From the NCBI GenBank assembly GCA_011911785.1, contig GCA_011911785.1_4084.1: a stretch of DNA of 64,000 nt; one strand, 5' to 3'. The notes beneath the pieces are model-generated. The model made no database searches. It was not told the origin of the DNA and worked only from the letters and a program-made list of their open reading frames with translations. The DNA is from a phage. Below are positions 1,681 to 64,000 of this stretch, in pieces. Every line of letters starts with the position of its first letter. Position 1 is the first letter of the stretch. The position numbers and the translations under genes are program-made.

Positions 1681-1685
1681 CAATC

Positions 1686-1841
<156 letters not shown>

Positions 1842-1870
1842 CAAAAACGAAATTACAATAGGAAATTAAA

Positions 1871-2056
1871 ATGCAACTTTTAATTCTTTCAATATTGTAT
1901 ATTATTATAATGGTTCCGATATCAATACGTTTAATTACAGTTGAACGATTTTTATCGAAACATGGAAATAGGTCTATGATCTTTGTACCAATCGGTCTGA
2001 TATTGTTTGGTATATTTGCATTTATAATGGGAATTAACGCTACATTCATTTCATAG
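1871..2056 (+). CDS. small hydrophobic membrane protein
   Basis: ATG with AGGAAA upstream; two hydrophobic segments. Confidence 0.5.
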   Translation: MQLLILSILYIIIMVPISIRLITVERFLSKHGNRSMIFVPIGLILFGIFAFIMGINATFIS

Positions 2057-2065
2057 GAAACAAAT

Positions 2066-2547
<482 letters not shown>

Positions 2548-2554
2548 AAGAACG

Positions 2555-2587
<33 letters not shown>

Positions 2588-2588
2588 C

Positions 2589-2644
<56 letters not shown>

Positions 2645-2645
2645 T

Positions 2646-2879
<234 letters not shown>

Positions 2880-2882
2880 TGT

Positions 2883-3227
<345 letters not shown>

Positions 3228-52463: not shown

Positions 52464-52511
52464 AATTCCTCCTTTATTCATTATACTATATTTAATCAAA
52501 AAAGAAAACCC

Positions 52512-52540
52512 TTGACACCCTTTCAGTACTGATGTACTAT
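52512..52540 (+). promoter_or_regulatory. sigma70-type promoter (TTGACA-17-TACTAT) for the small-gene array, divergent from beta-propeller array
   Basis: Hexamers in the 100-bp divergent intergenic region. Confidence 0.5.
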
Positions 52541-52565
52541 ATGAGAAATCTAAGGAGAATCGTAC

Positions 52566-52793
52566 ATGCCATATGCTCTAAAGTACTACATCAATGAACT
52601 AAATGAACTAGAGTACGCAAAGGTTCTCTCTGACCAATCGTGGCTAATTGAACTAAAAAATCATAAGAGCACAGGGTGTAACCTTATGCTTGGTAGTGCA
52701 CTGAATACCCTTACTGTGAGCATTGTACACAATACACTATTAGGGGATACCCGTAAACAATTTTTAAACATCTTAGTACTAGTGGCTATATGA
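52566..52793 (+). CDS. small protein, first gene of tandem small-paralog array
   Basis: ATG after AAGGAGAA. Confidence 0.55.
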   Translation: MPYALKYYINELNELEYAKVLSDQSWLIELKNHKSTGCNLMLGSALNTLTVSIVHNTLLGDTRKQFLNILVLVAI

Positions 52794-52990
52794 ACATTAA
52801 CCCGTACTACATCAATGCATTGCACCCTGGGCTACAAGATGCAATGAAGAACCAAAAAACAGTACTGAAAAATGCTAAACGCATACCAGGACTCCTGAAC
52901 TCAAACAGGAATAACCTCATATGGAATGCAATAGAAGGTAACGAAAGTATGCAGTACTATTTCATCTTAACACTACTATTGGAGTACTAA
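52790..52990 (+). CDS. small paralog-array protein
   Basis: ATGA overlap. Confidence 0.5.
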   Translation: MNINPYYINALHPGLQDAMKNQKTVLKNAKRIPGLLNSNRNNLIWNAIEGNESMQYYFILTLLLEY

Positions 52991-52991
52991 T

Positions 52992-53201
52992 ATGAATACT
53001 GAACATAAAGAATTCTACACCAAATACCTCAGCAACGAAGAACAAATGTTTCTAAGGAGTGTACCACCTGTAAGTATAGACACACCCAACACAAGGAATT
53101 GCTTTAATAATTGTATACGTAGTACTCTAGAAGCTATTGAATGCAATAACAAAAATATGCAGTACTCAAGTTTAATCGGACTAATATACTTCTATGAATA
53201 A
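52992..53201 (+). CDS. small paralog-array protein (HKEFYTKYL N-terminal motif)
   Basis: Starts 2 nt after stop; family motifs. Confidence 0.55.
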   Translation: MNTEHKEFYTKYLSNEEQMFLRSVPPVSIDTPNTRNCFNNCIRSTLEAIECNNKNMQYSSLIGLIYFYE

Positions 53202-53385
53202 TCATAAAGATTTCTACTGTAGTAAACTACACGAACAATACAGGGACTCATTCCCTCAAGAACCTATGAGAAAGAATAGTCCCTTTTATAATTACGATTT
53301 CAGGTTGGAGACACGTTATGCAATAGAACAACCATTTACTTCAACTAAGTACCGCTCTATCCTGAACCTCATCTTTAAGTTCTAA
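53194..53385 (+). CDS. small paralog-array protein (HKDFYCSKL)
   Basis: Family motifs. Confidence 0.5.
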   Translation: MNNHKDFYCSKLHEQYRDSFPQEPMRKNSPFYNYDFRLETRYAIEQPFTSTKYRSILNLIFKF

Positions 53386-53605
53386 AAAGGTACTATATGA
53401 AAACTACAAACATTCATCAGTACTACATAGATATTCTCCCTAAAGATATACAGTTCATACTTAAACAAGAATTCAGTACTTTTTAAAAACTTAAAAGAAC
53501 CGCACCGAATGTACTCATCCAGCACCAAAAAAATGTCGTGCGTAATATTCTACAAGGTGCAACAGGGACCGAGTACTTTAATATAGTAAGGCTAATTACA
53601 TTACA

Positions 53606-53791
53606 ATGAATCATATAAGCTACTATTACCAAAAACTATCCGACAGAGACAAGTACAGCCACAACTCCCATGTGTGGTACTACAAACGCGGCAGTATAAG
53701 AGACAAACAACATTACTTCTGTACTGCTATAAAAGAAACACTAACAACTAAGTACACGTACAGAGCAGTACTTAAACTTATTGAAATGTAG
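53606..53791 (+). CDS. small paralog-array protein
   Basis: Family-like termini. Confidence 0.5.
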   Translation: MNHISYYYQKLSDRDKYSHNSHVWYYKRGSIRDKQHYFCTAIKETLTTKYTYRAVLKLIEM

Positions 53792-53799
53792 AGAATACA

Positions 53800-53979
53800 A
53801 TGCTAGAATACTACCTAAGCGTAATTTACCCAGAAGATAGATACGGCTTCAATTACTTCTCAATGAGCTATCATTGTAGTTCGCAAAGAAAACAAAGAAA
53901 ATTACTCCTGAATTGTACTAAATTGGCACAGGACGAAATGTTCACATATAATGAAGTACTGAAACTAATCTCTATATAA
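53800..53979 (+). CDS. small paralog-array protein (MLEYY...), 59 aa
   Basis: Below ORF-track cutoff; ATG 9 nt after previous stop. Confidence 0.4.
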   Translation: MLEYYLSVIYPEDRYGFNYFSMSYHCSSQRKQRKLLLNCTKLAQDEMFTYNEVLKLISI

Positions 53980-53989
53980 GGAATAAACT

Positions 53990-54169
53990 ATGCTAGAGTA
54001 CTACACCGATAATCTCAGTACTAAGGATCGTTTCATGTACGACACCTTCGTGAAGTACTACAACATAGGAACAAAAAGTACTAAAACTATTAATCTCAAT
54101 AGCTGCATTCATCACGTCCTGACAAAAAATAACCCATACAGAGAAATAATCTCGCTTGTAACAGTATAA
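53990..54169 (+). CDS. small paralog-array protein (MLEYY...), 59 aa
   Basis: Below ORF-track cutoff; paralog of previous. Confidence 0.4.
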   Translation: MLEYYTDNLSTKDRFMYDTFVKYYNIGTKSTKTINLNSCIHHVLTKNNPYREIISLVTV

Positions 54170-54197
54170 GCAGTATAAGCAATTTAAGGAGACTAAA

Positions 54198-54869
54198 ATG
54201 AAACTCAATCCACAAAGCAAACGATACCTACAGCACTTTAAGTACCTACAATCAATCCAGGCTGAATCTACCACTAATGCATATACTTATCATCCTAATG
54301 TACTAAAGAACCTAAAGAAAAGTAAAAAAACCAGTACAAATGGAGTTAACGTATCAAAGAACCTTGAATTGTACATGAAGAAAAATAATATAGCTGTTCA
54401 TTATATGAATATCTATAATACTGATTTAAAAGTATTGAGTACTAATACGAGCATGAAGGTACTAAAGAACGCATCCTTCATCATCCATATGCAGTTGGAT
54501 AATACCCCGTGCACTTTAATGCTATACTTCGGGAATACATACTTCTTCGGGAATTGTAACACCTCCCACGATGTCAATACAGCACAATTCCAAATGGGTG
54601 GCATATACAGTATGGGTTCAGAAGAAATACACGATAACATGCATTTCTTCCAACAGCAACGTACAGAAGAAACTAAATCAATTGTAGAATTCCTCAAAGA
54701 ACTACAAGGCAAAGAATTATCAGAAGAAGAACTATTCATGTACAGTACTGTAATCGATAATCCTGTACTGTACAAAAACGCGTACAATCTTACAAAACAT
54801 GTACAGGAACTTATCAGTACTAATAAGAAAATTCATCACCTCATTACATATATTACAAACTATGCATAA
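54198..54869 (+). CDS. hypothetical 223-aa protein embedded in the small-gene array
   Basis: ATG after AAGGAGACTAAA. Confidence 0.55.
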   Translation: MKLNPQSKRYLQHFKYLQSIQAESTTNAYTYHPNVLKNLKKSKKTSTNGVNVSKNLELYMKKNNIAVHYMNIYNTDLKVLSTNTSMKVLKNASFIIHMQLDNTPCTLMLYFGNTYFFGNCNTSHDVNTAQFQMGGIYSMGSEEIHDNMHFFQQQRTEETKSIVEFLKELQGKELSEEELFMYSTVIDNPVLYKNAYNLTKHVQELISTNKKIHHLITYITNYA

Positions 54870-55044
54870 AGAATACTACGTAAGTAAACTTACAATAGAT
54901 CTCCAAAAACTTATTCCCCAAAAACCTGTAGATTTCAAAGATAAAAGCCAAACTATATTCTACCGATATCAAACAGAATCTGCAATAAATGAAGATGATA
55001 TCTATAACCTGTACAATGTACTAACACTTATATACAGGTACTAA
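54862..55044 (+). CDS. small paralog-array protein (MHKEYY...LIYRY)
   Basis: Internal ATG; conserved N- and C-terminal motifs. Confidence 0.6.
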   Translation: MHKEYYVSKLTIDLQKLIPQKPVDFKDKSQTIFYRYQTESAINEDDIYNLYNVLTLIYRY

Positions 55045-55045
55045 T

Positions 55046-55234
55046 ATGCACAAAGAATACTACACAAAATATTTCCCAATGTACCTCAGAACTAATCTAT
55101 TAGATAAACCTCGCGGTATCAATGCACAAAACGATAAAAAGTACTTTACTATGTGCACTAAAGCATGTATACAAGATTATGATAGCTATCATCGAGTACT
55201 GTACCACACCCTGTACCTCGCATTCGTGTACTAA
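55046..55234 (+). CDS. small paralog-array protein (MHKEYY...LAFVY)
   Basis: Starts 2 nt after stop. Confidence 0.6.
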   Translation: MHKEYYTKYFPMYLRTNLLDKPRGINAQNDKKYFTMCTKACIQDYDSYHRVLYHTLYLAFVY

Positions 55235-55243
55235 GGAAATCAT

Positions 55244-55444
55244 ATGCATAAAGAACACTACATAAAAGAACTACCAAAGTTTCTACAAGGCAATCTATTA
55301 GATGATGAACCTCGCGACATTAACTGTATATACGAAGCTGATTACTTCCGTACATGTACTGAACAAGTACTTAATGAAGAAGTTAATGAAAACAATTCTC
55401 AAGTGCAACTGTACCACACTCTGTATCTCGCGTTCCAGTACTAA
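55244..55444 (+). CDS. small paralog-array protein (MHKEHY...LAFQY)
   Basis: Conserved termini. Confidence 0.6.
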   Translation: MHKEHYIKELPKFLQGNLLDDEPRDINCIYEADYFRTCTEQVLNEEVNENNSQVQLYHTLYLAFQY

Positions 55445-55452
55445 GGACTAAT

Positions 55453-55635
55453 ATGTATAAAGAATTTTATAAAGATCATCTCCCAATGCATCTCCAACAC
55501 CATGTGCCAACAAAACCATTGGGCATAAAAGATCATGCAAAAATAATGTTCCAACAATGTACTAAGTACACCCTAATATACGATGACAATCCATATATGC
55601 TGTACTACATAACAATGCTAATATTCAGGTACTAA
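55453..55635 (+). CDS. small paralog-array protein (MYKEFY...LIFRY)
   Basis: Conserved termini. Confidence 0.6.
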   Translation: MYKEFYKDHLPMHLQHHVPTKPLGIKDHAKIMFQQCTKYTLIYDDNPYMLYYITMLIFRY

Positions 55636-55637
55636 TC

Positions 55638-55838
55638 ATGTATAAAGAATACTATATGAGTAAACTATCAAGCACCGAAAGAATCTGGTGCGGAGCCGCC
55701 GCCCCCGTTAATCCAAAAAGTGCATACGCAAAAATGTGCTTTAGGAAAGCTACAACGAACTCAATTGAAGCTCTAGAACAAGATGACACTAAAGCACTAT
55801 ACTCTAACCTAATGTTGCTAGTATATATCTATGGATAA
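55638..55838 (+). CDS. small paralog-array protein (MYKEYY...)
   Basis: Conserved termini. Confidence 0.6.
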   Translation: MYKEYYMSKLSSTERIWCGAAAPVNPKSAYAKMCFRKATTNSIEALEQDDTKALYSNLMLLVYIYG

Positions 55839-56022
55839 TTATAAAGAATACTATAAACAATTTGTTAAAGAGAACTACAAAGATGCCGTCCCCGTAATCC
55901 CTTTAAATTCCCATGACCCAAGTTCTATATTCTTGTTTAAGGACGCAATACGTACAGTACTCAATACTAAAGATGAACAGGTGCAGTACGTATTCTTACT
56001 ATTACTTATATACAGACACTAA
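55831..56022 (+). CDS. small paralog-array protein (YKEYY...LIYRH)
   Basis: Conserved termini. Confidence 0.6.
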   Translation: MDNYKEYYKQFVKENYKDAVPVIPLNSHDPSSIFLFKDAIRTVLNTKDEQVQYVFLLLLIYRH

Positions 56023-56023
56023 T

Positions 56024-56221
56024 ATGAATGACCATAAAGAATTCTATATAAGTAAACTCAAAGAGAATGAACAAGTATGGATTAACGCTCTAATCCCTCT
56101 ACCAATGACTCGATATGAATTTAATAAATGTACTAATATAGCAATAGACCCTTCTCCTGTTCTAGAGAATGTACAGTACAATCAGTACTACTATATCTTA
56201 ATGCTTATATATAGGAAGTAA
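56024..56221 (+). CDS. small paralog-array protein (HKEFY...LIYRK)
   Basis: Internal ATG 2 nt after previous stop. Confidence 0.6.
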   Translation: MNDHKEFYISKLKENEQVWINALIPLPMTRYEFNKCTNIAIDPSPVLENVQYNQYYYILMLIYRK

Positions 56222-56851
56222 TTAAACACATATAGCTAGGGGAAGCTCCGTAGTGCAAGCATTATACAGGCTTTAACATATGTTGCATATGTTAAAATTC
56301 AGCCTGGACAAATGCGATCACTAGGATTCTCCCCAGGCTAAACCCCGTAATCATAGGTAGTCATAAGTAATCATATATAAACATTTAAGTAATCATTTAT
56401 AATCATTGCAGTGAAGAGTATTGAGTACTGTTTCCCCTATATGATTCAGTACTGATATCCCACTAAGTAGGCAAATGAAGTCGCCCAAAATTTACATAAT
56501 TTTACAGTACTGAACAATTGCAAAACAAATCATTTCCAATCAAAAGTAATCACGGAATGACCAGTACTGAAAACTCCCAATCACCTATTCAAAAAAGTTC
56601 AATTTACCCTTTGTCAAAAATCCCGAATACCCATTGGGGAAAATTCCGAATACCCCTTGAGGCTCCAGCAAAAAGTTGGTTAGTACTCCATTGTAAATCT
56701 GGATCGTAAAAATTTTGGAGTACCTATGAAATAAAAGTTGGATCTTCGAAAGTTGAAATTTACATTGGGACATATAGGATTAGTGGGATATAATGAGTTT
56801 TGAAGAGATACAGAAGATATGTTTTCAGTACTGAATAATGAAAGAAATCTA

Positions 56852-56879
56852 TTGACATTATGATTCAGTACTGTATAAT
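56852..56879 (+). promoter_or_regulatory. orphan sigma70-type promoter (TTGACA-16-TATAAT) in non-coding hub
   Basis: Consensus hexamers with no ORF downstream. Confidence 0.45.
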
Positions 56880-57280
56880 GTTCTACATAGAGTGATGGAT
56901 TGCCGCAAACAATTCAGAGCCTTAACCCTCCTGTCGTGAGACAGTACAGAAGAGATTGAATCCTCCTATGCAGTGGTTCATCTTTGACAACCTCTTTTTT
57001 CGTAATATAAACAGTACTGTTATTAACAGAATGGTAGCAGTACTGATATTAATCTAATATAATGTTACCATGCAATGTGGTGAATTTCCCTTAACAGTAT
57101 TCAGTACTACATGATAGTCTTCATCCTCCTAGGGTAACATAGTGAGGGCTATTGTGGCAGTACTGAATACTCCTTTCACAAGATAGATCTATGGTATAGT
57201 ACTGACGGATTTTGGGCGTAGTAACCCTGGGTGGATTTTGGACGTAGAGATGCCTAGCCCTCCAGAAGTCTGGAAGTAAA

Positions 57281-57408
57281 GATGGCTATCCCTCTAGACG
57301 GCTGGATGGCTAGATTTCTAGATGGCTGTACTGCTAGACGTTTGGACGGCTAAACGGCTAAACGGCTAAACGGCTAGATGGTTAAACGTCTGGATGTATA
57401 GACGGCTA
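57281..57408. repeat. tandem array of ~16 copies of an 8-bp unit (consensus GAYGGCTA)
   Basis: Direct reading: gatggcta, gacggctg, gatggcta, gacggcta, aacggcta x3, gatggtta, gacggcta etc. in strict 8-bp register. Confidence 0.85.
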
Positions 57409-57573
57409 AATCAAAATTTTTATTTTGTTTTTTCCAATAGTTCCCCTACCGCGTGGGGATGGTTTCCCCGCAGTATCTGGAGTTAGATTTTTCTGAATCT
57501 GGAATCATTATCTAATAAACTGGGGGCAATGTCAACCGCCTGGATGAATATTTTTAAAAATAATCTAGTACTG

Positions 57574-57650
57574 AATTTTGGGCGTAACTATGCACCCGGT
57601 GGGCTAGAGTCTTTCTCGACTTGATGAAATAATTATAGCAGTACTGAATG
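57574..57650 (+). repeat. repeat element B copy (ttttgggcgta...gcacccggtgggctagag...taattata)
   Basis: Shares ~50-bp core with copies at 57786, 59660, 61176. Confidence 0.5.
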
Positions 57651-57785
57651 ATAAAAGCAATAGCCTAAGTGTAAAAAGTTTTAATTAATTTGCTTGCCAT
57701 CCTGGGGCGTACTATGGTACTATGATTCAGTACTGAGAAAGTGCTTTTACCTGCTAGGGTGCGGGAGTGTATCCTTTTTAAATTT

Positions 57786-57860
57786 ACTGAATTTTGGGCG
57801 TAGTTCCGCACCCCCTGGGGTATCCGCTTTCTCGCGTCTATGTAGTAATTATACGCTTTT
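57786..57860 (+). repeat. repeat element B copy
   Basis: ttttgggcgtagttccgcaccccctggggtatccgctttctcgcgtctatgtagtaattatac. Confidence 0.5.
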
Positions 57861-58078
57861 TTAGTACTGAGTCAATAGCTAAAAACAAAATAATTGAAAA
57901 TAATTTAACGCGTTTAAATGGCCCGTAAAGCCCTGGATTGTTGGGAGTGGTGCAAATGTATAGCTTAGGTGTATTAATGCGTTAGAATGCGTATGAGGCC
58001 GTTTTAAGGGTATAGTACTGAATAATAGTACTCCTATATAGAAAGAAAACTATTTTAAAAAGTATTTGTAGAAAGTAC

Positions 58079-58106
58079 TTGCAAAGTATTGGGAAAGGTG
58101 TAGAAT
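58079..58106 (+). promoter_or_regulatory. early-type promoter (aaaagtacTTGCAA-16-TAGAAT-gttttacatc)
   Basis: First of >=12 near-identical promoter units in block C. Confidence 0.6.
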
Positions 58107-58120
58107 GTTTTACATCGAGA

Positions 58121-58137
58121 GCGGGAACACTTCCCGC
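58121..58137 (+). promoter_or_regulatory. 5' leader hairpin (GCGGGAA-CAC-TTCCCGC)
   Basis: Inverted repeat between -10 and SD. Confidence 0.55.
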
Positions 58138-58161
58138 TACACTTTAAGAGAGATTAAAACG

Positions 58162-58524
58162 ATGGCTACTCAAATCAATAAAATTATTGCTAACCTGGTT
58201 AACTTCCGCGAAGAGATGAAAGGTCTTCCGGCTGAAACTGTAAAGATTCACATTTCAGCTTATCGGGAATTGATTGCGATGTTACCGCTTAAGCGTGAAC
58301 AATACGCCGCTACCGTGATGCTTGATGCGATGATCCACAAGATGATTGCCAGTGATTTAACGATGGCTTATCAGTACATGGGCGAAATGTTTGCGGTGTA
58401 TAGTAAACCAGTACCAGGGATGGAAAGTACCGAAGTATTGCACGGTTTAAACTTAAAACAAGATGCATGGGATAATATGCCTCGTTTCCTGGTATGGGCT
58501 GACAGTGGCAAGATTTACGAATAA
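58162..58524 (+). CDS. hypothetical protein
   Basis: ATG downstream of leader hairpin; track start 58105 lies in the -10. Confidence 0.6.
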   Translation: MATQINKIIANLVNFREEMKGLPAETVKIHISAYRELIAMLPLKREQYAATVMLDAMIHKMIASDLTMAYQYMGEMFAVYSKPVPGMESTEVLHGLNLKQDAWDNMPRFLVWADSGKIYE

Positions 58525-58538
58525 GTTTTAAAAAGTAC

Positions 58539-58566
58539 TTGCAAACTAAGTTTAAAAGCGTATAAT
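58539..58566 (+). promoter_or_regulatory. early-type promoter (TTGCAA-16-TATAAT)
   Basis: Repeated promoter unit. Confidence 0.6.
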
Positions 58567-58578
58567 ACTTTCTATCAG

Positions 58579-58597
58579 GTGGGGAATAGTTCCCCAC
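58579..58597 (+). promoter_or_regulatory. 5' leader hairpin (GTGGGGAA-TAG-TTCCCCAC)
   Basis: Perfect 8-bp inverted repeat. Confidence 0.6.
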
Positions 58598-58618
58598 TAC
58601 AAATAAGAGAATTTAAAA

Positions 58619-58858
58619 ATGGCTACTACTAAAACTTTCAACGGTCACAAAAACAAAACTCAATGGAATGTAAGCCTTTGGATTAATAACGATGAGTCAT
58701 TGTATCGTCTGGCGAAAGAATTTATCGACGCTAATACTAATCGTAATGATGCGGCCCGTCATATGATGCTATTTTTAGAACAAATTGGACAAGATAAAAC
58801 ACCGGACGGATTCAAGTATAGCACTACTGCGATCCGTGCTGCAATGGTTGGCATGTAA
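58619..58858 (+). CDS. hypothetical protein
   Basis: ATG after AAGAGAATTTAAAA. Confidence 0.6.
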   Translation: MATTKTFNGHKNKTQWNVSLWINNDESLYRLAKEFIDANTNRNDAARHMMLFLEQIGQDKTPDGFKYSTTAIRAAMVGM

Positions 58859-58939
58859 GAGAATAGATTAAAAGTACTATTGCACGGTGATAGTACTTTA
58901 TAATAGATTTCTTTTATACATCAACGATGGGGTAACAGC

Positions 58940-59206
58940 ATGAATATTATATACTTTGCAACGCGTGAACTAGCTCGGATTGCAGCACGCCAGGACGGGG
59001 CGACGTTTAAAGATATGGGTGTACAATCGGAACGTGGTAAACGTTGGGCCGTAGTAAAGCAAAGTACAGCCCGATCAATTCAGTACTGGTTAGCGGCGTT
59101 AAAAAGTCCTGATAGTGTATCGCGTCGAGTAGTAGAAATAAAGCACGACCGCAAGGGCAACCGTGTTACTGTGTACAGTACTAAAAAGATTGCAGTACTT
59201 GAATAA
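58940..59206 (+). CDS. hypothetical basic protein
   Basis: ATG after GGGGTAACAGC. Confidence 0.55.
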   Translation: MNIIYFATRELARIAARQDGATFKDMGVQSERGKRWAVVKQSTARSIQYWLAALKSPDSVSRRVVEIKHDRKGNRVTVYSTKKIAVLE

Positions 59207-59212
59207 AAGTAC

Positions 59213-59240
59213 TTGCATACTAAGTTTAAAAGCGTATAAT
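59213..59240 (+). promoter_or_regulatory. early-type promoter (TTGCAT-16-TATAAT)
   Basis: Repeated promoter unit. Confidence 0.6.
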
Positions 59241-59252
59241 ACTTTATATCAG

Positions 59253-59271
59253 GTGGGGAATACTTCCCCAC
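59253..59271 (+). promoter_or_regulatory. 5' leader hairpin (GTGGGGAA-TAC-TTCCCCAC)
   Basis: Inverted repeat; loop differs from the 58579 copy. Confidence 0.6.
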
Positions 59272-59292
59272 TACAATGAAGAGGATTTTAAA

Positions 59293-59523
59293 ATGGCTAT
59301 CATGTATATGACCGAAGTTAAAACCGTAAAAGATACTACCACTAATAAAACTACTTACTTACAGCGGGTATGCGGTGTATGGCAACGTATTAGTAAAGCA
59401 AAGTACTTTAAATTAACATCATATGCTAATCGTTCGGATTCATTCAGTACTGAAATAAAAGGTAATAAATTACACCAATACGGCACTTATTATTATTATA
59501 GCCTGGACGCGATTGCAGTCTAA
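59293..59523 (+). CDS. hypothetical protein
   Basis: ATG after AAGAGGATTTTAAA. Confidence 0.6.
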   Translation: MAIMYMTEVKTVKDTTTNKTTYLQRVCGVWQRISKAKYFKLTSYANRSDSFSTEIKGNKLHQYGTYYYYSLDAIAV

Positions 59524-59659
59524 GCAGTTTACAAATCTTTACAATTGCCGGTATTGACTTATTTTGTCAGTACTGGCATAATGTATCTATTGAAACGAAC
59601 AATTTGGCCCACGGGGTGCGGGAGTGTATCTATAGAAAAAGTAGTTTAGTACAGTTACA

Positions 59660-59710
59660 ATTGTGCACCCGGTGGGTTAGCTGTTGTCATGGGGTATATT
59701 ATACCAGTAC
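59660..59710 (+). repeat. repeat element B copy (partial)
   Basis: gtgcacccggtgggttagctgttgtcatggggtatattatac. Confidence 0.4.
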
Positions 59711-59772
59711 TTGATAATGCTGTCAATACTTTTTTTTACTATTCAGTACTGAAAACTATTTTTAAAAAGTAC

Positions 59773-59800
59773 TTGCAAACTATGTTTAAAGGCGTATAAT
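59773..59800 (+). promoter_or_regulatory. early-type promoter with leader hairpin but no ORF (degenerate duplicate of the next unit)
   Basis: TTGCAA-16-TATAAT, hairpin 59814-59841, then ccaggagtaaggcatacg where the next unit has ccaggagtaagcatcATG. Confidence 0.5.
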
Positions 59801-59890
59801 GTTTTACATCAGGACGGGGAACGAAATAAGTAACTCCCCGTTAAGTAGCCCAGGAGTAAGGCATACGAAAAACTCCCCTGATAAAATAGT

Positions 59891-59918
59891 TTGACAATTG
59901 TTTTTAAAAGCGTATAAT
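59891..59918 (+). promoter_or_regulatory. early-type promoter (TTGACA-16-TATAAT)
   Basis: Repeated unit; leader hairpin 59931-59953. Confidence 0.6.
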
Positions 59919-59973
59919 ACTTTACATCGAGGCGGGGGAATGATTCTCCCGCCTATAACCAGGAGTAAGCATC

Positions 59974-60207
59974 ATGATCGAACAAATCAAAACTACTACA
60001 AGCCGGACTGGAACGAAAGTACATTGCATCGCTGATAACGAAAAAGGCGTACCCTATTGTGCTGTACACGTAAACACAGATGGCGACTATTGGTTAACTG
60101 TATATGGGAGTTATTCGTTTGCTCGACCTGCTCATAGTAAGATCCTGGACGTAGTGAAGCCTACCGGAAAGGATATCACGGTAGAAAAATATTTTACTAA
60201 GCACTAA
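59974..60207 (+). CDS. hypothetical protein
   Basis: ATG after CCAGGAGTAAGCATC. Confidence 0.6.
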   Translation: MIEQIKTTTSRTGTKVHCIADNEKGVPYCAVHVNTDGDYWLTVYGSYSFARPAHSKILDVVKPTGKDITVEKYFTKH

Positions 60208-60214
60208 AAAGTAC

Positions 60215-60242
60215 TTGCATACTAAGTTTAAACGAGTATAAT
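60215..60242 (+). promoter_or_regulatory. early-type promoter (TTGCAT-16-TATAAT)
   Basis: Repeated unit; leader hairpin ~60256-60276. Confidence 0.6.
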
Positions 60243-60295
60243 ACTTTATATCGAGGCGGGGGAATGGTTCCCCTGCATTTACAGAGGATTATCTA

Positions 60296-60583
60296 ATGAG
60301 CAAAGTAATTGACTATAAAGTGTTAACCAAATCATTTTCTATCAGCCAGTGCACCGATGGTTATTGGCTTTATGATGAAACACGCGGCATGAATTTAGCT
60401 ATGCGGGAGAAAACTGCTGAGGCGGCGTATGTGCAAGCCCTGGAATACTACCAGAAACGTTTAAAGGAAGTAGAAGAGGATTATAAAAGCCTCAAAGAGA
60501 AAGTAGATAATTTCGTCGGTCAATTCGTTGACGATGACGAGGAAGACGGGTACTACTGCAACCGCTGCGGATCTTACAATTAA
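60296..60583 (+). CDS. hypothetical protein with C-terminal CNRCG motif
   Basis: ATG after AGAGGATTATCTA. Confidence 0.6.
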   Translation: MSKVIDYKVLTKSFSISQCTDGYWLYDETRGMNLAMREKTAEAAYVQALEYYQKRLKEVEEDYKSLKEKVDNFVGQFVDDDEEDGYYCNRCGSYN

Positions 60584-60600
60584 GTACTGAGGATTATCTA

Positions 60601-60804
60601 ATGAGTGATTTAATCGACCGTATCAAAGAGCTTGAAGAAAAAGAATTGCAGTTAATCGGCTTACAAAATAAAATCTTTCATGATTTGGGGAGTTTTATCA
60701 ATGCCTGGGATAGTGGCGATCCTGCTGCGTTACCTGCTAACCGCGAGGCGATGATCAATGATGTGCGTGGTGTCTTTGAGTATGTTTTAAAGCAATTAAA
60801 TTAA
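60601..60804 (+). CDS. hypothetical protein
   Basis: ATG after GAGGATTATCTA (duplicate of upstream RBS); co-transcribed. Confidence 0.6.
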   Translation: MSDLIDRIKELEEKELQLIGLQNKIFHDLGSFINAWDSGDPAALPANREAMINDVRGVFEYVLKQLN

Positions 60805-60812
60805 AAAAGTAC

Positions 60813-60840
60813 TTGCAATTAGTTTTCAGTACTGTATAAT
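60813..60840 (+). promoter_or_regulatory. early-type promoter (TTGCAA-16-TATAAT)
   Basis: Repeated unit; leader hairpin 60853-60871 (GGGGAGA/TCTCCC). Confidence 0.6.
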
Positions 60841-60890
60841 AGTTTACATCAAGGGGAGAAATGGTTCTCCCTGGTAATGAGGAAAATAAA

Positions 60891-61112
60891 ATGGCTAATA
60901 TCACTACTCTTTCCCAACTTGAAGCACTGGTTAAATCTATGCGGGAACATGCCGACAATATCGGCGTAAAAGATCCAGCCGTTTGCTTCTGCGACGAATT
61001 GAATGATGATACATTGGTAATAGCAGAAGTCCAGGACGTTTCTAACTATTCATCGCGTTACACTGGCGGCGTAGCAAATAAAGGTGACTTCTGTTTATAC
61101 CTTACAAAATAA
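60891..61112 (+). CDS. hypothetical protein
   Basis: Internal ATG after GAGGAAAATAAA; track start is inside the leader hairpin. Confidence 0.6.
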   Translation: MANITTLSQLEALVKSMREHADNIGVKDPAVCFCDELNDDTLVIAEVQDVSNYSSRYTGGVANKGDFCLYLTK

Positions 61113-61117
61113 CAACG

Positions 61118-61147
61118 AGGGGATCAATTGATCCCCTTTCTTTTTTC
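61118..61147 (+). terminator. intrinsic terminator (GGGGATCAATTGATCCCC plus T-run)
   Basis: Perfect palindromic stem followed by T-run. Confidence 0.75.
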
Positions 61148-61175
61148 AGTACTGAATCATTTAATAGACGGATCT

Positions 61176-61235
61176 ATGCACCCGGTGGGTTAGAGACTGT
61201 TTCGTCTTTATGTAGTAATTATACAGTACTGGATG
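61176..61235 (+). repeat. repeat element B copy
   Basis: tatgcacccggtgggttagagactgtttcgtctttatgtagtaattatac. Confidence 0.5.
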
Positions 61236-61357
61236 CAGTTGTCAAGAACTATTTTTCAAATACTTTTATATTAATGTACTATACAATAGTTTTTAAACGC
61301 GTATAATGTTTTACATCTAGTCGGGAATACTCCCTAGTACTAACAAAGGATATACAA

Positions 61358-61657
61358 ATGAAAACTGCAATCATCGCCCTGGCTTTATCTGTTTCCTCTT
61401 TCGCTGTTAATGCGTCGTTAGATGTACCTGGTGATAAATTCATTCAGTGCACCGTAGCAATGACCGATGAAAGTACTGGCGAGATTGTTTTAAAGGATCT
61501 GGAATTACAGCCAGAAGCATTTAAAAACGGGCCGTTCCATGAAGAAGACGAAAACGGTAGCACAACAATTTATTATGATGCAAAGAAAAAACGCGGTTCG
61601 GTCACTGTTATGGATACTGAGAAAGTAACGCATACAGGCGTTATTAACTGCCTATAA
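61358..61657 (+). CDS. secreted small protein (signal peptide)
   Basis: MKTAIIALALSVSSFAVNA signal peptide; ATG after AAAGGATATACAA. Confidence 0.6.
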   Translation: MKTAIIALALSVSSFAVNASLDVPGDKFIQCTVAMTDESTGEIVLKDLELQPEAFKNGPFHEEDENGSTTIYYDAKKKRGSVTVMDTEKVTHTGVINCL

Positions 61658-61677
61658 TACATCAGTACTGAATCACT

Positions 61678-61705
61678 AGCCCACTATAAGCAGTGGGCTT
61701 TTTTG
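61678..61705 (+). terminator. intrinsic terminator (AGCCCACT...AGTGGGCT plus T-run)
   Basis: Hairpin plus T6; near-duplicate of terminator at 62408. Confidence 0.7.
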
Positions 61706-61752
61706 TAGTATCGTAGTACTGGAATACTTTGAAAATAGTTTTAAAAAAGTAG

Positions 61753-61780
61753 TTGACATTACCGCAAAAAGGCGTAGAAT
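61753..61780 (+). promoter_or_regulatory. early-type promoter (TTGACA-16-TAGAAT) with ~120-nt leader
   Basis: Hexamers; leader shares motifs with the orphan unit at 59773. Confidence 0.55.
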
Positions 61781-61903
61781 GTATTACATCAAGACGGGGA
61801 ACACTAAGTAGACCGCCAGTAAGTCGAACGAAAAACTGGACACGTCGAGAAAACTTTGATACACTAACTAACGTAAACTAAACTTTAATTGAGGAATTAC
61901 ATA

Positions 61904-62386
61904 ATGGCTAACGTAAAATCATTCATCAAAGCACTGGTAGCAAATGAAACTAACGTAGCGGCAGAGATCCTGGCCGAACTGGATAGCGATACCATGAAAG
62001 CAGTACGCAACAATTTTAACATTGCGTACAGCGAAGCGAAAGAACTGCAAGCTAATAAAGCGGCAGCACTTGAAGCTGAGAAGGCAGCACGCGAAGCTGA
62101 ATTGCAGAAAACGATTGAAGATATTAACGCCGCCGTCGCTGGGCTTGATCTGGAAGTAGTTACCGAAATGGCACGTAAAGCCCTGGCAGCGAAATACGGG
62201 GAAGACAAGCCAGAAGTAAAAGCTAAAAAATGGATTCAGGAACGCGTGACGGTAGTACTGGATAACGGCGAGGAATACACTGTACCAGTACGCGGTAACT
62301 GCATTGCGGTAGTACTGGATGCTATCAAAGAAAGCGGATTGACTCGCGAGGAATGGATCGAAGCTCATCGCAAAGTTGAAGCATAA
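61904..62386 (+). CDS. hypothetical Ala/Glu/Lys-rich protein
   Basis: ATG after GAGGAATTACATA; antisense track ORFs are low-complexity artefacts. Confidence 0.65.
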   Translation: MANVKSFIKALVANETNVAAEILAELDSDTMKAVRNNFNIAYSEAKELQANKAAALEAEKAAREAELQKTIEDINAAVAGLDLEVVTEMARKALAAKYGEDKPEVKAKKWIQERVTVVLDNGEEYTVPVRGNCIAVVLDAIKESGLTREEWIEAHRKVEA

Positions 62387-62407
62387 CAATTAAAGTACTG
62401 AATCACT

Positions 62408-62435
62408 AGCCCACCTTAAACAGTGGGCTTTTTTG
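62408..62435 (+). terminator. intrinsic terminator (AGCCCACC...CAGTGGGCT plus T-run)
   Basis: Hairpin plus T6. Confidence 0.7.
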
Positions 62436-62588
62436 TGTCTATCGTTTACCAGGCCAGCAGCACCGCCTAGAATCGATTCTAACGCATTAAACTGATTATC
62501 TGATGCATCGCCCTAGCTGGTGGCGTTAAGGTCGTTAGAATGCGATTGAGGACGTTTAAAGTATTTTGCAAAAAGTAATAAAAAGTAC

Positions 62589-62616
62589 TTGCACGATTAA
62601 GAGATTAGCGTATAAT
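62589..62616 (+). promoter_or_regulatory. early-type promoter (TTGCAC-16-TATAAT)
   Basis: Repeated unit. Confidence 0.55.
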
Positions 62617-62661
62617 TAATTTCATCAAGGCGAGACACCTTAACTAACTGAGGATATAAAG

Positions 62662-62814
62662 ATGAATACTTATGAACTGGATTGTTTCACTTTACAAGTA
62701 ATGTCAGTATGCAGCAAGAAAGATTGGTCATCAAAGGAATTTAAAGCAGTTATCGCGTGTGCAAAACACGGCAAGACTATCAATGAAACGGCATCAATCA
62801 TTGATAAACTTTAA
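62662..62814 (+). CDS. small protein (50 aa)
   Basis: ATG after GAGGATATAAAG; below ORF-track cutoff. Confidence 0.4.
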   Translation: MNTYELDCFTLQVMSVCSKKDWSSKEFKAVIACAKHGKTINETASIIDKL

Positions 62815-62822
62815 AAAATAGT

Positions 62823-62851
62823 TTGACAATAGTTTTAAGTACTGACATAAT
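62823..62851 (+). promoter_or_regulatory. early-type promoter (TTGACA-17-CATAAT)
   Basis: Repeated unit. Confidence 0.55.
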
Positions 62852-62885
62852 ACATACATCAACTACTGAATAGGAATTAAAAAAA

Positions 62886-63113
62886 ATGGCTATCGTAATC
62901 ACTCGCGTAACTGGTACTACTGGCAATTCTTCTACTGTTGCTGTAATTACTAACAAGAAAGGTGCGGAACTACATTTTGCAATGTATAACTGGTCAGTTG
63001 ATGAGTTTGGTCAGTACGCTAGTGTAGAATACATTGAAACCTATCAAGTGCCGTCGATTAGTTTAACTGATTTGGGCGTTGAGCGTATCCTTTGCCTGGA
63101 TGAATTAAATTAA
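62886..63113 (+). CDS. hypothetical protein
   Basis: ATG after AGGAATTAAAAAAA. Confidence 0.6.
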   Translation: MAIVITRVTGTTGNSSTVAVITNKKGAELHFAMYNWSVDEFGQYASVEYIETYQVPSISLTDLGVERILCLDELN

Positions 63114-63121
63114 AAAAGTAC

Positions 63122-63149
63122 TTGCAAAGTAAAACGAATAAAGTATAAT
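63122..63149 (+). promoter_or_regulatory. early-type promoter (TTGCAA-16-TATAAT) with leader hairpin 63162-63181
   Basis: Repeated unit; GGGGAGAAATGGTTCTCCCC hairpin. Confidence 0.6.
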
Positions 63150-63198
63150 ACATTACATCAAGGGGAGAAATGGTTCTCCCCACTAAGAGGAAACGAAA

Positions 63199-63342
63199 AT
63201 GAAAACTTGTCAATGTGGTAAAAAATCTATTACTGGTTTAAAGCGGGGCGTTGCTCTTTGTCAGTATCACTATAATGCTCAAGTATGGGGTAAAGAGTGG
63301 GCCGACCAGGTTGAAGCAGTAAAGAAAGCAAAAAGTAAGTAA
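63199..63342 (+). CDS. small Cys-containing protein (47 aa, CQCG...CQYH)
   Basis: ATG after AGAGGAAACGAAA; below ORF-track cutoff. Confidence 0.4.
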   Translation: MKTCQCGKKSITGLKRGVALCQYHYNAQVWGKEWADQVEAVKKAKSK

Positions 63343-63361
63343 AATTATTATCACAGTACTA

Positions 63362-63390
63362 TTGACATAGATTGATAGTACTGGCATAAT
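63362..63390 (+). promoter_or_regulatory. early-type promoter (TTGACA-17-CATAAT), copy 1 of duplicated promoter-leader
   Basis: Unit at ~63343-63433 repeated almost exactly at ~63647-63737. Confidence 0.6.
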
Positions 63391-63433
63391 AGATTTTATC
63401 AAGACAACACATATTAATTTAAGGAATACTAAA

Positions 63434-63646
63434 ATGGCTATCATTATTAAAAACAAAGTTAACAAGACTATCGTTAAACTGGCAGAAGTGAAAGAAGGTT
63501 ATAAAGTATCTTGGGAGGGTTTTTATAGGATGTTCACAGATATAGACGATGCAATCAAGTACTACACTGATACGGTTGCTGACTTTGTTCGTTCTGATGT
63601 AGTAATGGCAGTTGCACAACATAAAGCATCGAAAGAAAGTAAGTAA
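63434..63646 (+). CDS. hypothetical protein
   Basis: ATG after AAGGAATACTAAA. Confidence 0.6.
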   Translation: MAIIIKNKVNKTIVKLAEVKEGYKVSWEGFYRMFTDIDDAIKYYTDTVADFVRSDVVMAVAQHKASKESK

Positions 63647-63665
63647 AAATATTATCACAGTACTA

Positions 63666-63694
63666 TTGACATAGTTTGATAGTACTGGCATAAT
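63666..63694 (+). promoter_or_regulatory. early-type promoter, copy 2 of duplicated promoter-leader
   Basis: Near-identical to 63362..63390 unit. Confidence 0.6.
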
Positions 63695-63737
63695 AGATTT
63701 TATCAAGACAACACATATTAATTTAAGGAATACTAAA

Positions 63738-64000
63738 ATGGCTAAAACTATCATTAACACCGTATCCCTGGCTGCAATCCGTGCAATCAATGTTGACGGT
63801 AAACGTTGGACTGATTCATATGGCAATACTTATCATTCTTGTCATGTAAGCGTTGAACTGGATAACGGTGTGAATGATCTGGCGGTTGAATCATTTACTT
63901 ATGGCTATGAAGATGCATATCAACAAACGGCGTTATCTCTCTTAAAGGAATCAGTAGATGGGCTTGATACTGTTGAAACCTCCCTTAATCGTTTGTGCAA
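63738..64000 (+). CDS. hypothetical protein (3' end outside window)
   Basis: ATG after AAGGAATACTAAA; open to window end. Confidence 0.55.
   Translation, partial: MAKTIINTVSLAAIRAINVDGKRWTDSYGNTYHSCHVSVELDNGVNDLAVESFTYGYEDAYQQTALSLLKESVDGLDTVETSLNRLC

What the first reader, a model, noticed from the sequence alone, without database searches (positions are those of the whole stretch)
57574..61235. Dispersed ~50-bp repeat element B of unknown function
Four copies (57574, 57786, 59660 partial, 61176) share (ttttgggcgta)...gcacccggtggg(c/t)tagag...tttc.cg.ctt.atgtagtaattata, and all are intergenic. A related motif ggtgcgggagtgtatc recurs at ~57745 and ~59609. These do not match the sigma70 promoters or terminators annotated here and could be alternative promoters, small-RNA genes or protein-binding sites.
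Basis: seen in the sequence. Interest (0 to 1): 0.5.

Follow-up and report, generated by a model that had tools for sequence, protein, structure and literature searches.

The report
Promoter-linked small RNA module family
The repeats are real: read on the opposite strand, each is a strong bacterial-type promoter followed by a conserved two-hairpin RNA module, an apparently undescribed small-RNA family found in at least 7-10 copies in the early-gene region of Rak2-like giant phages, whose job is still unknown.

Summary
The window comes from an Asteriusvirus jumbo coliphage (121Q/PBECO4/G17-like). Positions from about 56.5 kb to 64 kb are the left end of its ~21 kb direct terminal repeat.

All four copies belong on the minus strand.

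Each copy has four parts:
- a sigma70 promoter;
- a start near 'CAT';
- hairpin 1, with covarying stems and a purine-rich loop;
- an invariant CCCAYNGGGUGC followed by hairpin 2.

A covariance model finds five full copies and one partial copy at 57.5-61.3 kb and nothing in the other 56 kb. It finds 86 hits in Rak2-like phages of E. coli, Klebsiella, Cronobacter, Pectobacterium and Yersinia. There is no hit in Rfam, in the papers searched, in bacterial genomes or in PA5oct.

Copies occur in three settings: facing a bidirectional terminator, as face-to-face pairs, or upstream of early promoters.

Best reading: early small structured RNAs made by host polymerase and acting in trans. This role is inferred, and no partner is known.

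The parts
57576..57660 (-). Copy A. It has a -35 TTGCTT (57655-57660), a -10 TATAAT (57632-57637) and a predicted start near 57625. The RNA module is 57576-57624: hairpin 1 AGUC-GAGAAA-GACU, core CCCACCGGGUGC at 57592-57603, and hairpin 2 GGGUG/CGCCC. There is no partner copy and no terminator, and it points towards the left end of the genome.
   Evidence: CM hit of 53.7 bits. The fold shows both hairpins. Promoter scored 9 of 12. Core located.
57792..57875 (-). Copy B. It has a promoter TTGACT-16-TATAAT (57875->57848). The RNA module is 57792-57840: hairpin 1 CGC-GAGAAA-GCG, core CCCAGGGGGUGC at 57808-57819, and hairpin 2 GGGUG/CGCCC.
   Evidence: Promoter 11 of 12. CM hit of 51.3 bits. Fold.
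57694..57775 (+). Copy B', a degenerate plus-strand partner of B. It has a weak promoter-like site TTGCCA-18-TACTAT (57694-57723). Only hairpin 2 is kept (GGGUGCGGGAGUGUAUCC, 57755-57774), followed by a T run.
   Evidence: Partial CM hit of 14.9 bits. Flagged as terminator-like at 57756-57775. Exact motif. Its CCGCACCC pairs with GGGUGCGG of the copy B transcript.
59554..59635 (+). Copy C+. It has a promoter TTGACT-17-CATAAT with TG (59554-59582). The module is 59586-59635, with core CCCACGGGGUGC at 59608-59619.
   Evidence: Promoter. CM hit of 30.8 bits. Fold.
59649..59726 (-). It has a promoter TTGACA-17-TATAAT with TG (59726->59698). The module is 59649-59686, with core at 59665-59676 and no hairpin 1. 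It faces C+, so the two predicted transcripts overlap by about 100 nt and each can fold into a long hairpin.
   Evidence: Promoter 12 of 12. CM hit of 26.8 bits. Folds have z-scores of -4.4 and -3.6. The cores are separated by 45 nt, as in 9 other distinct pairs.
61162..61245 (-). Copy D. It has a promoter TTGACA-16-TATAAT (61245->61218) and a predicted start near 61211. The module is 61162-61210: hairpin 1 AGAC-GAAACA-GUCU and core at 61178-61189.
   Evidence: Promoter 12 of 12. CM hit of 59.4 bits. Orthologues at 88-95% identity in about 37 genomes and 77% in RaK2 and K64-1.
61118..61137 (.). Symmetrical GC hairpin GGGGATCAATTGATCCCC. It is the terminator of the plus-strand gene 60861-61112 and the likely stop for the copy D RNA about 40 nt after its core. 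That would give an RNA of about 105 nt.
   Evidence: Terminator-like on both strands. A hairpin at the same +39/40 distance occurs in 11 related copies. The RaK2 orthologue has a clean T run.
57207..57246 (-). Two decayed 3' halves of the element (TACGCCCAAAA and TACGTCCAAAA on the minus strand) with no promoter.
   Evidence: The same remnant lies left of the operator-like array in the related contig L127.

Best explanation
Element B is a family of paralogous small-RNA transcription units.

Shown:
- Each copy is a near-consensus sigma70 promoter. In 76 of 76 copies it is coupled, on the same strand and at a fixed distance, to a roughly 49-nt transcribed module.
- The module starts near +1 at a conserved CAT. 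It continues with a short hairpin whose stem sequence changes freely but stays paired and whose loop is purine-rich (GAGAAA, AGAUAA, GCGAAA). A CUAR linker follows, then the invariant CCCAYNGGGUGC.
- The GGGUGC of that 12-mer pairs with a downstream pyrimidine-rich arm through many G-U pairs. This works only in the RNA of the promoter strand.
- The family is conserved across Rak2-like jumbo phages of several enterobacterial genera. I counted at least 7-10 copies per genome in the stretches I held, all in the terminal-repeat or early-gene region.

Inferred:
- Host RNA polymerase fires these promoters immediately after DNA entry.
- The RNAs are about 50-110 nt long. Copy D stops at the bidirectional terminator, and the face-to-face pairs give overlapping complementary RNAs.
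- The module acts in trans. The invariant 12-mer, presented between two hairpins, would be a recognition site for a host or phage protein, or a pairing seed. In the protein case the many strongly expressed copies would act as a decoy or sponge. No partner is identified.
For: Identity of the window: an Asteriusvirus, with the region at the left end of the terminal repeat. The termini of fEgEco12 were confirmed experimentally (PMC13070987).

Promoters:
- 12, 12 and 11 of 12 matches on the minus strand.
- 67 of 76 copies reach at least 10 of 12, against about 4% of random positions in the same loci.

Structure:
- Hairpin 2 is 90.5% paired, against 33-66% in slid registers, on a plain MAFFT alignment.
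- On the model-based alignment of 72 distinct rows, all four hairpin 1 pairs show compensatory changes (UA, AU, CG, GC). The hairpin 2 3' arm varies almost entirely by substitutions that keep the pair, G-U to G-C and U-A to U-G.
- Sense-strand pairing is 90.5%, against 48.4% on the opposite strand.

Distribution:
- Five full copies and one partial copy lie in the last 7.5 kb of the window and none in the other 56 kb.
- 86 hits occur in 20 loci.
- The exact pattern hits mainly Rak2-like contigs in IMG/VR, plus a handful of unrelated contigs that I judged to be chance matches in coding sequence.

Transcription-unit shape and arguments for a trans role:
- A terminator hairpin lies at a fixed +39/40 nt in 11 copies, and there is a clean promoter, ~95 nt RNA and terminator with T run in RaK2.
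- Copies lie in either orientation relative to the genes and in three different downstream settings.
- No conserved ORF follows any copy.
Against: - There are no transcript data. Start sites, RNA ends and abundance are predictions.
- Copies A and B have no terminator.
- 22 related copies run straight into the next early promoter and gene, which also fits a leader role.
- Hairpin 2 has an invariant 5' arm, so only one of its six pairs (the often unpaired innermost one) shows any two-sided compensatory change (3 sequences).
- RNAalifold on the MAFFT alignment prefers a competing mini-hairpin RCCC-AYN-GGGU.
- The model-based alignment leans towards the structure it was built on, and its seed was selected for hairpin 1 pairing.
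- No target or binding partner was found. The only complement of the core in the window is the partner copy.
Confidence: 0.6

Rival explanations
1. The module is a cis-acting 5' leader. It would modify the polymerase that made it, or mark the transcript, in the manner of the HK022 put RNAs or a nut-like boxB site. The result would be read-through of the many terminators in the early region, or stabilisation of the transcript.
For: - The module always lies immediately downstream of a promoter.
- It has a two-hairpin architecture. Hairpin 1 has a free stem and a semi-conserved purine-rich loop, as expected for a loop that a protein recognises.
- 22 of 74 copies lie in the sense direction, upstream of early promoters and genes, with no terminator in between.
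Against: - In this window four of five full copies point against every neighbouring gene. None is followed by a ribosome-binding site or a conserved ORF.
- 26 of 74 copies are face-to-face pairs, and 11 point into a terminator 40 nt away.
- There is no Rfam match.
- No boxA-like sequence is present.
Confidence: 0.2
2. The function is at the DNA level. The repeat would be a promoter/terminator cassette kept similar by recombination (PeSL-like), or the 12-mer would be an operator for a repressor that shuts these promoters off. The RNA folding would then be incidental.
For: - The surrounding region is built from PeSL-like cassettes (family D1; PMC2839356, PMC4122927).
- CCC-N3-GGG is partly palindromic.
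- In related plus-strand copies the -35 box sits inside the terminator hairpin of the upstream gene.
Against: - Breakpoints between this window and three relatives fall at the D1 promoter cassettes (59928, 60205-60299, 60800, 61272-61316). They do not fall at element B copies, which lie inside conserved blocks.
- The hairpin 2 3' arm changes almost entirely by substitutions that keep RNA pairs, and pairing is strand-specific, 90.5% against 48.4%.
- Hairpin 1 covaries.
- The core lies at about +21 to +32, outside the promoter.
Confidence: 0.1
3. The elements are transcription-primed replication origins or their control RNAs. This would resemble T4 oriF/oriG R-loops or ColE1 RNA I/RNA II. A G-rich transcript from a strong promoter would hybridise in the AT-rich DNA downstream, and the face-to-face pairs would give a countertranscript.
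For: - Facing start sites lie about 100 nt apart and give fully complementary RNAs, the same geometry as ColE1 RNA I/RNA II.
- A G-rich core is followed by AT-rich sequence.
- Copies A and B lie in the non-coding leader at the genome end, next to a tandem 8-bp array.
Against: - Seven to ten origins packed into about 20 kb is unlikely.
- Conserved free-RNA hairpins are not needed for an R-loop.
- Many copies end at a terminator 40 nt further on.
- No initiator protein is linked to the elements.
Confidence: 0.07

Closest known systems
PeSL cassettes of T4-like phages (promoter-early stem-loops; PMC2839356, PMC4122927)
   Same: [quoted passage not shown]
- Concentrated in regions full of small genes of unknown function.
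- Rak2-like phages are distant T4 relatives.
   Different: - PeSLs lie in the gene direction directly upstream of an ORF and mark recombination breakpoints. In this window that behaviour belongs to the other repeat, AAAAGTACTTGCA...TATAAT plus a GC hairpin.
- Element B lies in either orientation, is not followed by an ORF and is not at breakpoints.
- It carries an invariant 12-mer and strand-specific RNA pairing.
Short promoter-to-terminator antisense RNAs of phages, such as lambda OOP RNA (from my own knowledge)
   Same: - Own sigma70 promoter pointing against the neighbouring genes.
- An RNA of roughly 80-110 nt ending at a hairpin.
- No ORF. Copy D fits this pattern.
   Different: - OOP is a single copy and overlaps the coding 3' end of cII.
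- Copy D overlaps only the terminator of its neighbour.
- Element B is a multi-copy family with a shared 5' module.
HK022 put RNAs (processive antitermination; from my own knowledge)
   Same: Two stem-loops immediately downstream of early promoters, in more than one copy per phage.
   Different: - put RNAs are about 70 nt and lie upstream of operons in the sense direction.
- Most copies here are antisense or in facing pairs.
- No similarity to put was detected and no antitermination activity is known.
Decoy RNAs with repeated protein-binding motifs, such as CsrB/CsrC and 6S RNA (from my own knowledge)
   Same: A high dose of one conserved RNA motif presented in hairpin context. This is the mechanism I favour.
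   Different: - In those RNAs the motifs are repeated within one molecule. Here the motif is spread over many separate genes.
- The CsrA GGA motif is absent from the core.
ncRNA001 and ncRNA002 in the terminal repeat of jumbo phage PA5oct (PMC7318152)
   Same: RNA-seq shows that a related jumbo phage transcribes non-coding RNAs from its terminal repeat at high level throughout infection.
   Different: - They are 236 and 451 nt long with no known motif.
- The covariance model finds nothing in the first 45 kb of PA5oct.

Membership tests
sigma70-type promoter | TTGACA-like -35 box, 16-18 bp spacer, TATAAT-like -10 box | tested here: met
   Window copies score 12, 12, 11, 10 and 9 of 12. Across the family, 67 of 76 copies score at least 10 of 12, against about 4% of random positions.
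sigma70-type promoter | Transcription start mapped experimentally | not testable with these tools
   No transcript data are available. The start is inferred from the conserved CAT 5-8 nt after the -10 box.
PeSL cassette | Strong early sigma70 promoter with an AT-rich upstream region | tested here: met
PeSL cassette | Stem-loop that terminates transcription arriving from upstream | tested here: inconclusive
   In related plus-strand copies the -35 box lies inside the upstream terminator hairpin. In the window only copy D adjoins a terminator, and copies A and B have none.
PeSL cassette | Lies directly upstream of, and in the same direction as, the ORF it expresses | tested here: not met
   Four of five full window copies are antisense to all genes, and none is followed by a ribosome-binding site and ORF.
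PeSL cassette | Marks insertion, deletion or replacement breakpoints between close relatives | tested here: not met
   Breakpoints against fEgEco12, vB_Ec-M-J and G17 fall at the D1 promoter cassettes. Element B copies lie inside conserved blocks.
Any Rfam family | Covariance-model match at the gathering score or at a useful E-value | tested here: not met
   Only tRNAs match at gathering score. Nothing relevant appears at E up to 5 in 56400-64000.
Independent small-RNA gene (promoter, short non-coding RNA, intrinsic terminator) | Own promoter and no ORF | tested here: met
   A possible GGGUG-N-AUG mini-ORF is not conserved.
Independent small-RNA gene (promoter, short non-coding RNA, intrinsic terminator) | Intrinsic terminator within about 50-250 nt | tested here: inconclusive
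   Met for copy D and for 11 related copies at a fixed +39/40 nt. Not met for A and B, nor for the 22 copies that run into a promoter.
Independent small-RNA gene (promoter, short non-coding RNA, intrinsic terminator) | Conserved secondary structure supported by covariation | tested here: met
   Hairpin 1 shows compensatory pairs, and hairpin 2 is strand-specific and wobble-compatible. Caveats: the alignment was fitted to the model, and a competing mini-hairpin exists.
put-like or nut-like antiterminator RNA | Sense orientation upstream of an operon that contains terminators | tested here: not met
   This fails for most window copies. It holds for only 22 of 74 family members.
put-like or nut-like antiterminator RNA | Terminator read-through in cis | not testable with these tools
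   This needs a reporter assay or an in vitro transcription assay.
Transcription-primed origin (T4 oriF/oriG or ColE1 type) | Persistent RNA-DNA hybrid and replication initiation at the site | not testable with these tools
   Only the geometry could be examined.

The most novel reading that the evidence does not exclude
The module is a new kind of phage RNA weapon. It would be a roughly 49-nt aptamer-like unit hard-wired to consensus host promoters and scattered in about ten copies through the first DNA to act in the cell. Its invariant CCCAYNGGGUGC would capture or reprogram a host factor, such as RNA polymerase, a ribonuclease, an RNA chaperone or a defence sensor. The same non-coding leader also carries arrays that look like host-repressor operators: MetJ-like here, Fur boxes in relatives. 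Together they would form a nucleic-acid-only host take-over toolkit.
Probability: 0.25. Interest if true: 0.85.

Novelty: new variant of a known kind. Interest (0 to 1): 0.6.

Why it matters
Giant Rak2-like phages devote a ~21 kb terminal repeat to early functions that are almost entirely unknown. This analysis shows that part of that region is not protein-coding filler. It contains a conserved, promoter-coupled structured RNA present in many copies and shared by phages of at least five enterobacterial genera.

The result gives annotators a covariance model for a new RNA family. It gives experimentalists precise predicted start sites and a 12-nt invariant sequence to use as bait. It also corrects the idea that these intergenic repeats are unrelated to sigma70 promoters.

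If the RNA proves to be a decoy or a polymerase modifier, it would be a new early take-over mechanism.

Tried and rejected
- The IMG/VR scan with TATAATTACTACATA was too AT-rich and returned mostly chance hits.
- Pseudoknot between the hairpin 1 loop (AGAUA) and the hairpin 2 3' arm (UAUCU). It fits only the AGAUAA-loop copies and does not covary (inspection).
- Small peptide (SD-like GGGUG followed by AUG or GUG). The start codon is not conserved, and some copies read AUG-UAA.
- CsrA site, CRISPR-repeat mimic, type III antitoxin repeat and boxA. No match on inspection.
- RyhB. Its terminator loop UAGCCAGCCGGGUGC resembles UAGCCCACCGGGUGC in 13 of 15 positions, but there is no Rfam RyhB hit at E up to 5, so I treat it as chance.
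- Similar short strings in RNase P RNA, tmRNA and 16S rRNA were recalled from memory, not tested, and set aside.
- Host homologue. An exact-pattern scan of 185,579 bacterial and archaeal species genomes gave one hit, an unrelated terminator hairpin.
- PA5oct. No hit.
- Target within the phage. No complement of the core occurs in the window other than the partner copies.
- Fur boxes. None near the window copies.

Full report
**Where the window comes from.** Megablast of 57150-61300 finds 151 phage records. The best are Escherichia jumbo phages TH47, UB, G17, 121Q and PBECO4 at about 90% identity. The records whose taxonomy I fetched (vB_Ec-M-J, G17) are genus Asteriusvirus. In several records the match starts at position ~669-680. 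In vB_Ec-M-J that stretch is annotated as a 21,525-bp direct terminal repeat. [quoted passage not shown] The left physical end therefore corresponds to about window position 56487. The finding lies 1.1-4.7 kb inside the terminal repeat. The first ~1.6 kb is non-coding in the annotated relatives. It is followed by many small plus-strand genes, each with its own promoter cassette (family D1).

**Checking the observation.** The four copies align from end to end. The core occurs 6 times against 0.5 expected.

**The key re-reading.** On the minus strand the promoter scan gives:
- TTGACA-16-TATAAT at 61245->61218, 12 of 12;
- TTGACA-17-TATAAT with TG at 59726->59698, 12 of 12;
- TTGACT-16-TATAAT at 57875->57848, 11 of 12.

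Copy A has TTGCTT-17-TATAAT. Each repeat is therefore a sigma70 promoter plus the first ~50 nt of its transcript.

The copy at 59608 has its own promoter at 59554-59582. The copy at 57758 is degenerate.

**Distribution.** The exact pattern CCCANNGGGTGCNNNNNTGTATC hits 23 stretches in IMG/VR. Most of them belong to jumbo-phage contigs whose lengths match RaK2, 121Q, GAP32, CBB and Yersinia phage fHe-Yen9-04, or to a few similar uncultivated genomes. A handful lie in unrelated contigs that I judged to be chance matches in coding sequence. A longer pattern hits only one unrelated terminator in 185,579 bacterial and archaeal species genomes.

I collected 76 distinct copies. All have a sigma70-type promoter on the same strand, with the -10 box ending 20-30 nt before the core. 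Of these, 67 score at least 10 of 12, against about 4% of random positions in the same loci.

A covariance model built from 25 gaplessly aligned copies finds five full copies and one partial copy at 57.5-61.3 kb of the window. It finds nothing credible in the other 56 kb, even with filters off. It gives 86 hits in 20 related loci, corresponding to at least 7-10 per genome in the stretches held. It finds nothing in the first 45 kb of the more distant jumbo phage PA5oct. Rfam has no match. A full-text search for the core sequence found no relevant paper.

**Anatomy, read on the promoter strand.**
- A -35 box, a 16-18 bp spacer and a -10 box.
- About 6 nt, then a conserved CAT, taken as the start.
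- Hairpin 1: a 3-5 bp stem and a 6-8 nt purine-rich loop such as GAGAAA, AGAUAA, GCGAAA or AGAACAA. It is absent in about a quarter of copies.
- The linker CUAR.
- The invariant CCCAYNGGGUGC.
- A 5-6 nt purine-rich loop.
- A pyrimidine-rich 3' arm (G/C)YRYCY.
- AU-rich sequence.

**Evidence for RNA structure.**
- On a plain MAFFT alignment of 72 copies, hairpin 2 is 90.5% paired, against 33-66% when the partner columns are slid.
- On the model-based alignment, all four pairs of hairpin 1 show changes on both sides (UA, AU, CG and GC at the same position).
- The 5' arm of hairpin 2 is invariant. Its 3' arm varies almost entirely by substitutions that keep a pair: G-U to G-C, and U-A to U-G. At the U-A position there are 47 A and 25 G and no pyrimidine.
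- Counted as Watson-Crick plus wobble pairs, hairpin 2 is 90.5% paired on the promoter strand but only 48.4% on the opposite strand. This points to a constraint on the RNA rather than on the duplex DNA.
- Single-sequence folds recover the hairpins.

**Caveats on the structure.**
- The seed alignment was chosen for hairpin 1 pairing, and the model-based alignment leans towards its own structure.
- Stems are short, so single sequences are only weakly better than shuffles.
- RNAalifold on the MAFFT alignment prefers a competing four-pair mini-hairpin RCCC-AYN-GGGU inside the invariant 12-mer.
- The two folds exclude each other, and I cannot say which is used or whether both are.

**Settings.** Of 74 distinct copies with enough flank:
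- 26 form 13 face-to-face pairs, with 45, 56 or 63 nt between the cores. In the window these are C+/C-. B with the degenerate B' has the same geometry by my own inspection, although the script did not classify B as paired.
- 11 are followed at a fixed +39/40 nt by a GC hairpin that is also the terminator of the converging gene (copy D). Several of the unclassified copies show a similar hairpin with a weaker T run. The RaK2 orthologue of D reads as a textbook unit: TTGACA-17-TATAAT, about 95 nt of RNA, then GGGAGACUCAUUGUCUCCC and a T run.
- 22 run into the next early promoter. In these the -35 box lies inside the terminator hairpin of the upstream gene.
- 15 have none of these features, including copies A and B.

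In the window, four of the five full copies point against all annotated genes. No conserved ORF follows any copy.

**Interpretation.** The promoter, the RNA module, its conservation and its copy number are shown. The function is not.

I favour independently transcribed early small RNAs whose shared 5' module acts in trans. The reasoning is that the module is kept whatever lies downstream and whichever way it points. That is what a decoy or riboregulator tolerates and what a cis-acting leader does not. The invariant 12-mer between two hairpins looks like a recognition site. Many copies behind consensus promoters would give a high dose within minutes of infection.

The main rival is a put-like or nut-like cis element. 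It fits the promoter-proximal position and the 22 sense copies. It does not fit the antisense, paired and terminator-facing copies.

A purely DNA-level role, as a PeSL-like recombination cassette or an operator, is disfavoured. Synteny breakpoints between this phage and three relatives fall at the other repeat family, the AAAAGTACTTGCA...TATAAT cassettes at about 59928, 60205-60299, 60800 and 61272-61316. Element B copies lie inside conserved blocks. The strand-specific pairing argues the same way.

A transcription-primed origin or a ColE1-like countertranscript pair matches the geometry of the facing pairs. It does not match the copy number or the conserved free-RNA hairpins.

**Comparison with what is known.** The closest named kind of element is the PeSL cassette of T4-like phages (PMC2839356, PMC4122927). 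Element B shares the promoter-plus-stem-loop idea. It fails two defining features that I tested: orientation and coupling to an ORF, and location at breakpoints. It behaves more like a multi-copy small-RNA gene family. PA5oct shows by RNA-seq that jumbo-phage terminal repeats can express abundant non-coding RNAs (PMC7318152), but those RNAs are unrelated in sequence. I therefore rate this a new variant of a known kind: a new RNA family with an unusual promoter-coupled, multi-copy, orientation-free layout.

**Side observations.** The non-coding leader next to copies A and B holds about 21 in-frame tandem 8-mers at 57240-57408, with consensus AGACGGCT. They resemble MetJ metboxes (AGACGTCT). Runs of 9, 6 and 4 boxes have at least 5 of 8 matches, whereas shuffled sequence never exceeds a run of 4. 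The array is conserved in fEgEco12, vB_Ec-M-J, G17 and a Yersinia-phage locus.

At the equivalent position a related contig carries at least five Fur boxes. Single Fur boxes lie exactly midway between facing element pairs in several relatives. This hints that the leading end of these genomes carries arrays of host-repressor sites. I did not take this further.

Noticed in passing
window 57240-57408: About 21 in-frame tandem 8-mers (TRF period 8/16/24, consensus ACGGCTAA, i.e. AGACGGCT) resemble MetJ metboxes (AGACGTCT). Runs of 9, 6 and 4 boxes have at least 5 of 8 matches, whereas shuffled windows never exceed a run of 4. Nearly every box has G at position 6, so the binder could be MetJ or a MetJ-like protein. 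The array is conserved in fEgEco12 (15 boxes), vB_Ec-M-J (14), G17 (12) and Yersinia-phage locus L128 (9).
   Followed up: partly
L127 860-1300; also L060, L125, L128, L140, L145: In related phages the position equivalent to the 8-mer array holds at least five Fur-box-like 19-mers (up to 16 of 19 matches to GATAATGATAATCATTATC). Single Fur boxes also lie exactly 39 nt from the cores, midway between facing element pairs. None occurs in window 56-64 kb. This may be repressor titration or iron sensing.
   Followed up: partly
whole window, densest at 52000-64000: AGTACT is about ten times over-represented (229 sites against ~22 expected), and CAGTACTG occurs 57 times. It lies in promoter spacers, where it supplies the TG of extended -10 boxes, and overlaps the -35 box in AAAAGTACTTGCA.
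   Followed up: partly
window 58058-63167 (11 copies, e.g. 58518-58584, 59752-59818, 60194-60260): A second repeat family precedes each small plus-strand gene. It consists of an AT-rich region, AAAAGTACTTGCA, 16 bp, TATAAT, ACATC, a GC hairpin and a ribosome-binding site. It behaves like a PeSL cassette: synteny breakpoints with fEgEco12, vB_Ec-M-J and G17 fall at these cassettes.
   Followed up: partly
L004 9500-9530, 13500-13530, 16780-16800; L003 2690, 8060: In plus-strand copies of related phages the -35 TTGACT of the element's promoter is embedded in the terminator hairpin of the upstream gene (for example GGGATTGACTCCGGTCAGTCCC flanked by an A run and a T run). This forms a compact terminator-promoter overlap.
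   Followed up: no
window 57448-57535: A further leftward promoter, TTGACA-17-GATAAT (57535->57507), does not belong to the family. It is followed by the hairpin GCGGGGAAACCAUCCCCACGC. Both are conserved in the related contig L127 (about 1075-1180).
   Followed up: no
window 63332-63759: A 124-nt direct repeat at 94% identity, 304 bp apart, includes a promoter (TATTGACA...GGCATAAT) and the start of a small gene. It looks like a recent tandem duplication of a gene cassette.
   Followed up: no
window 55000-56230: Just left of the terminal-repeat boundary there are three to four paralogous segments (ATGCACAAAGAATACTAC...) spaced 200-590 bp apart. They suggest a small tandem gene family.
   Followed up: no
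window 922-3217: Five tRNA genes lie on the plus strand: Gly-TCC, Ser-GCT, Met-CAT, Asn-GTT and Thr-TGT.
   Followed up: no
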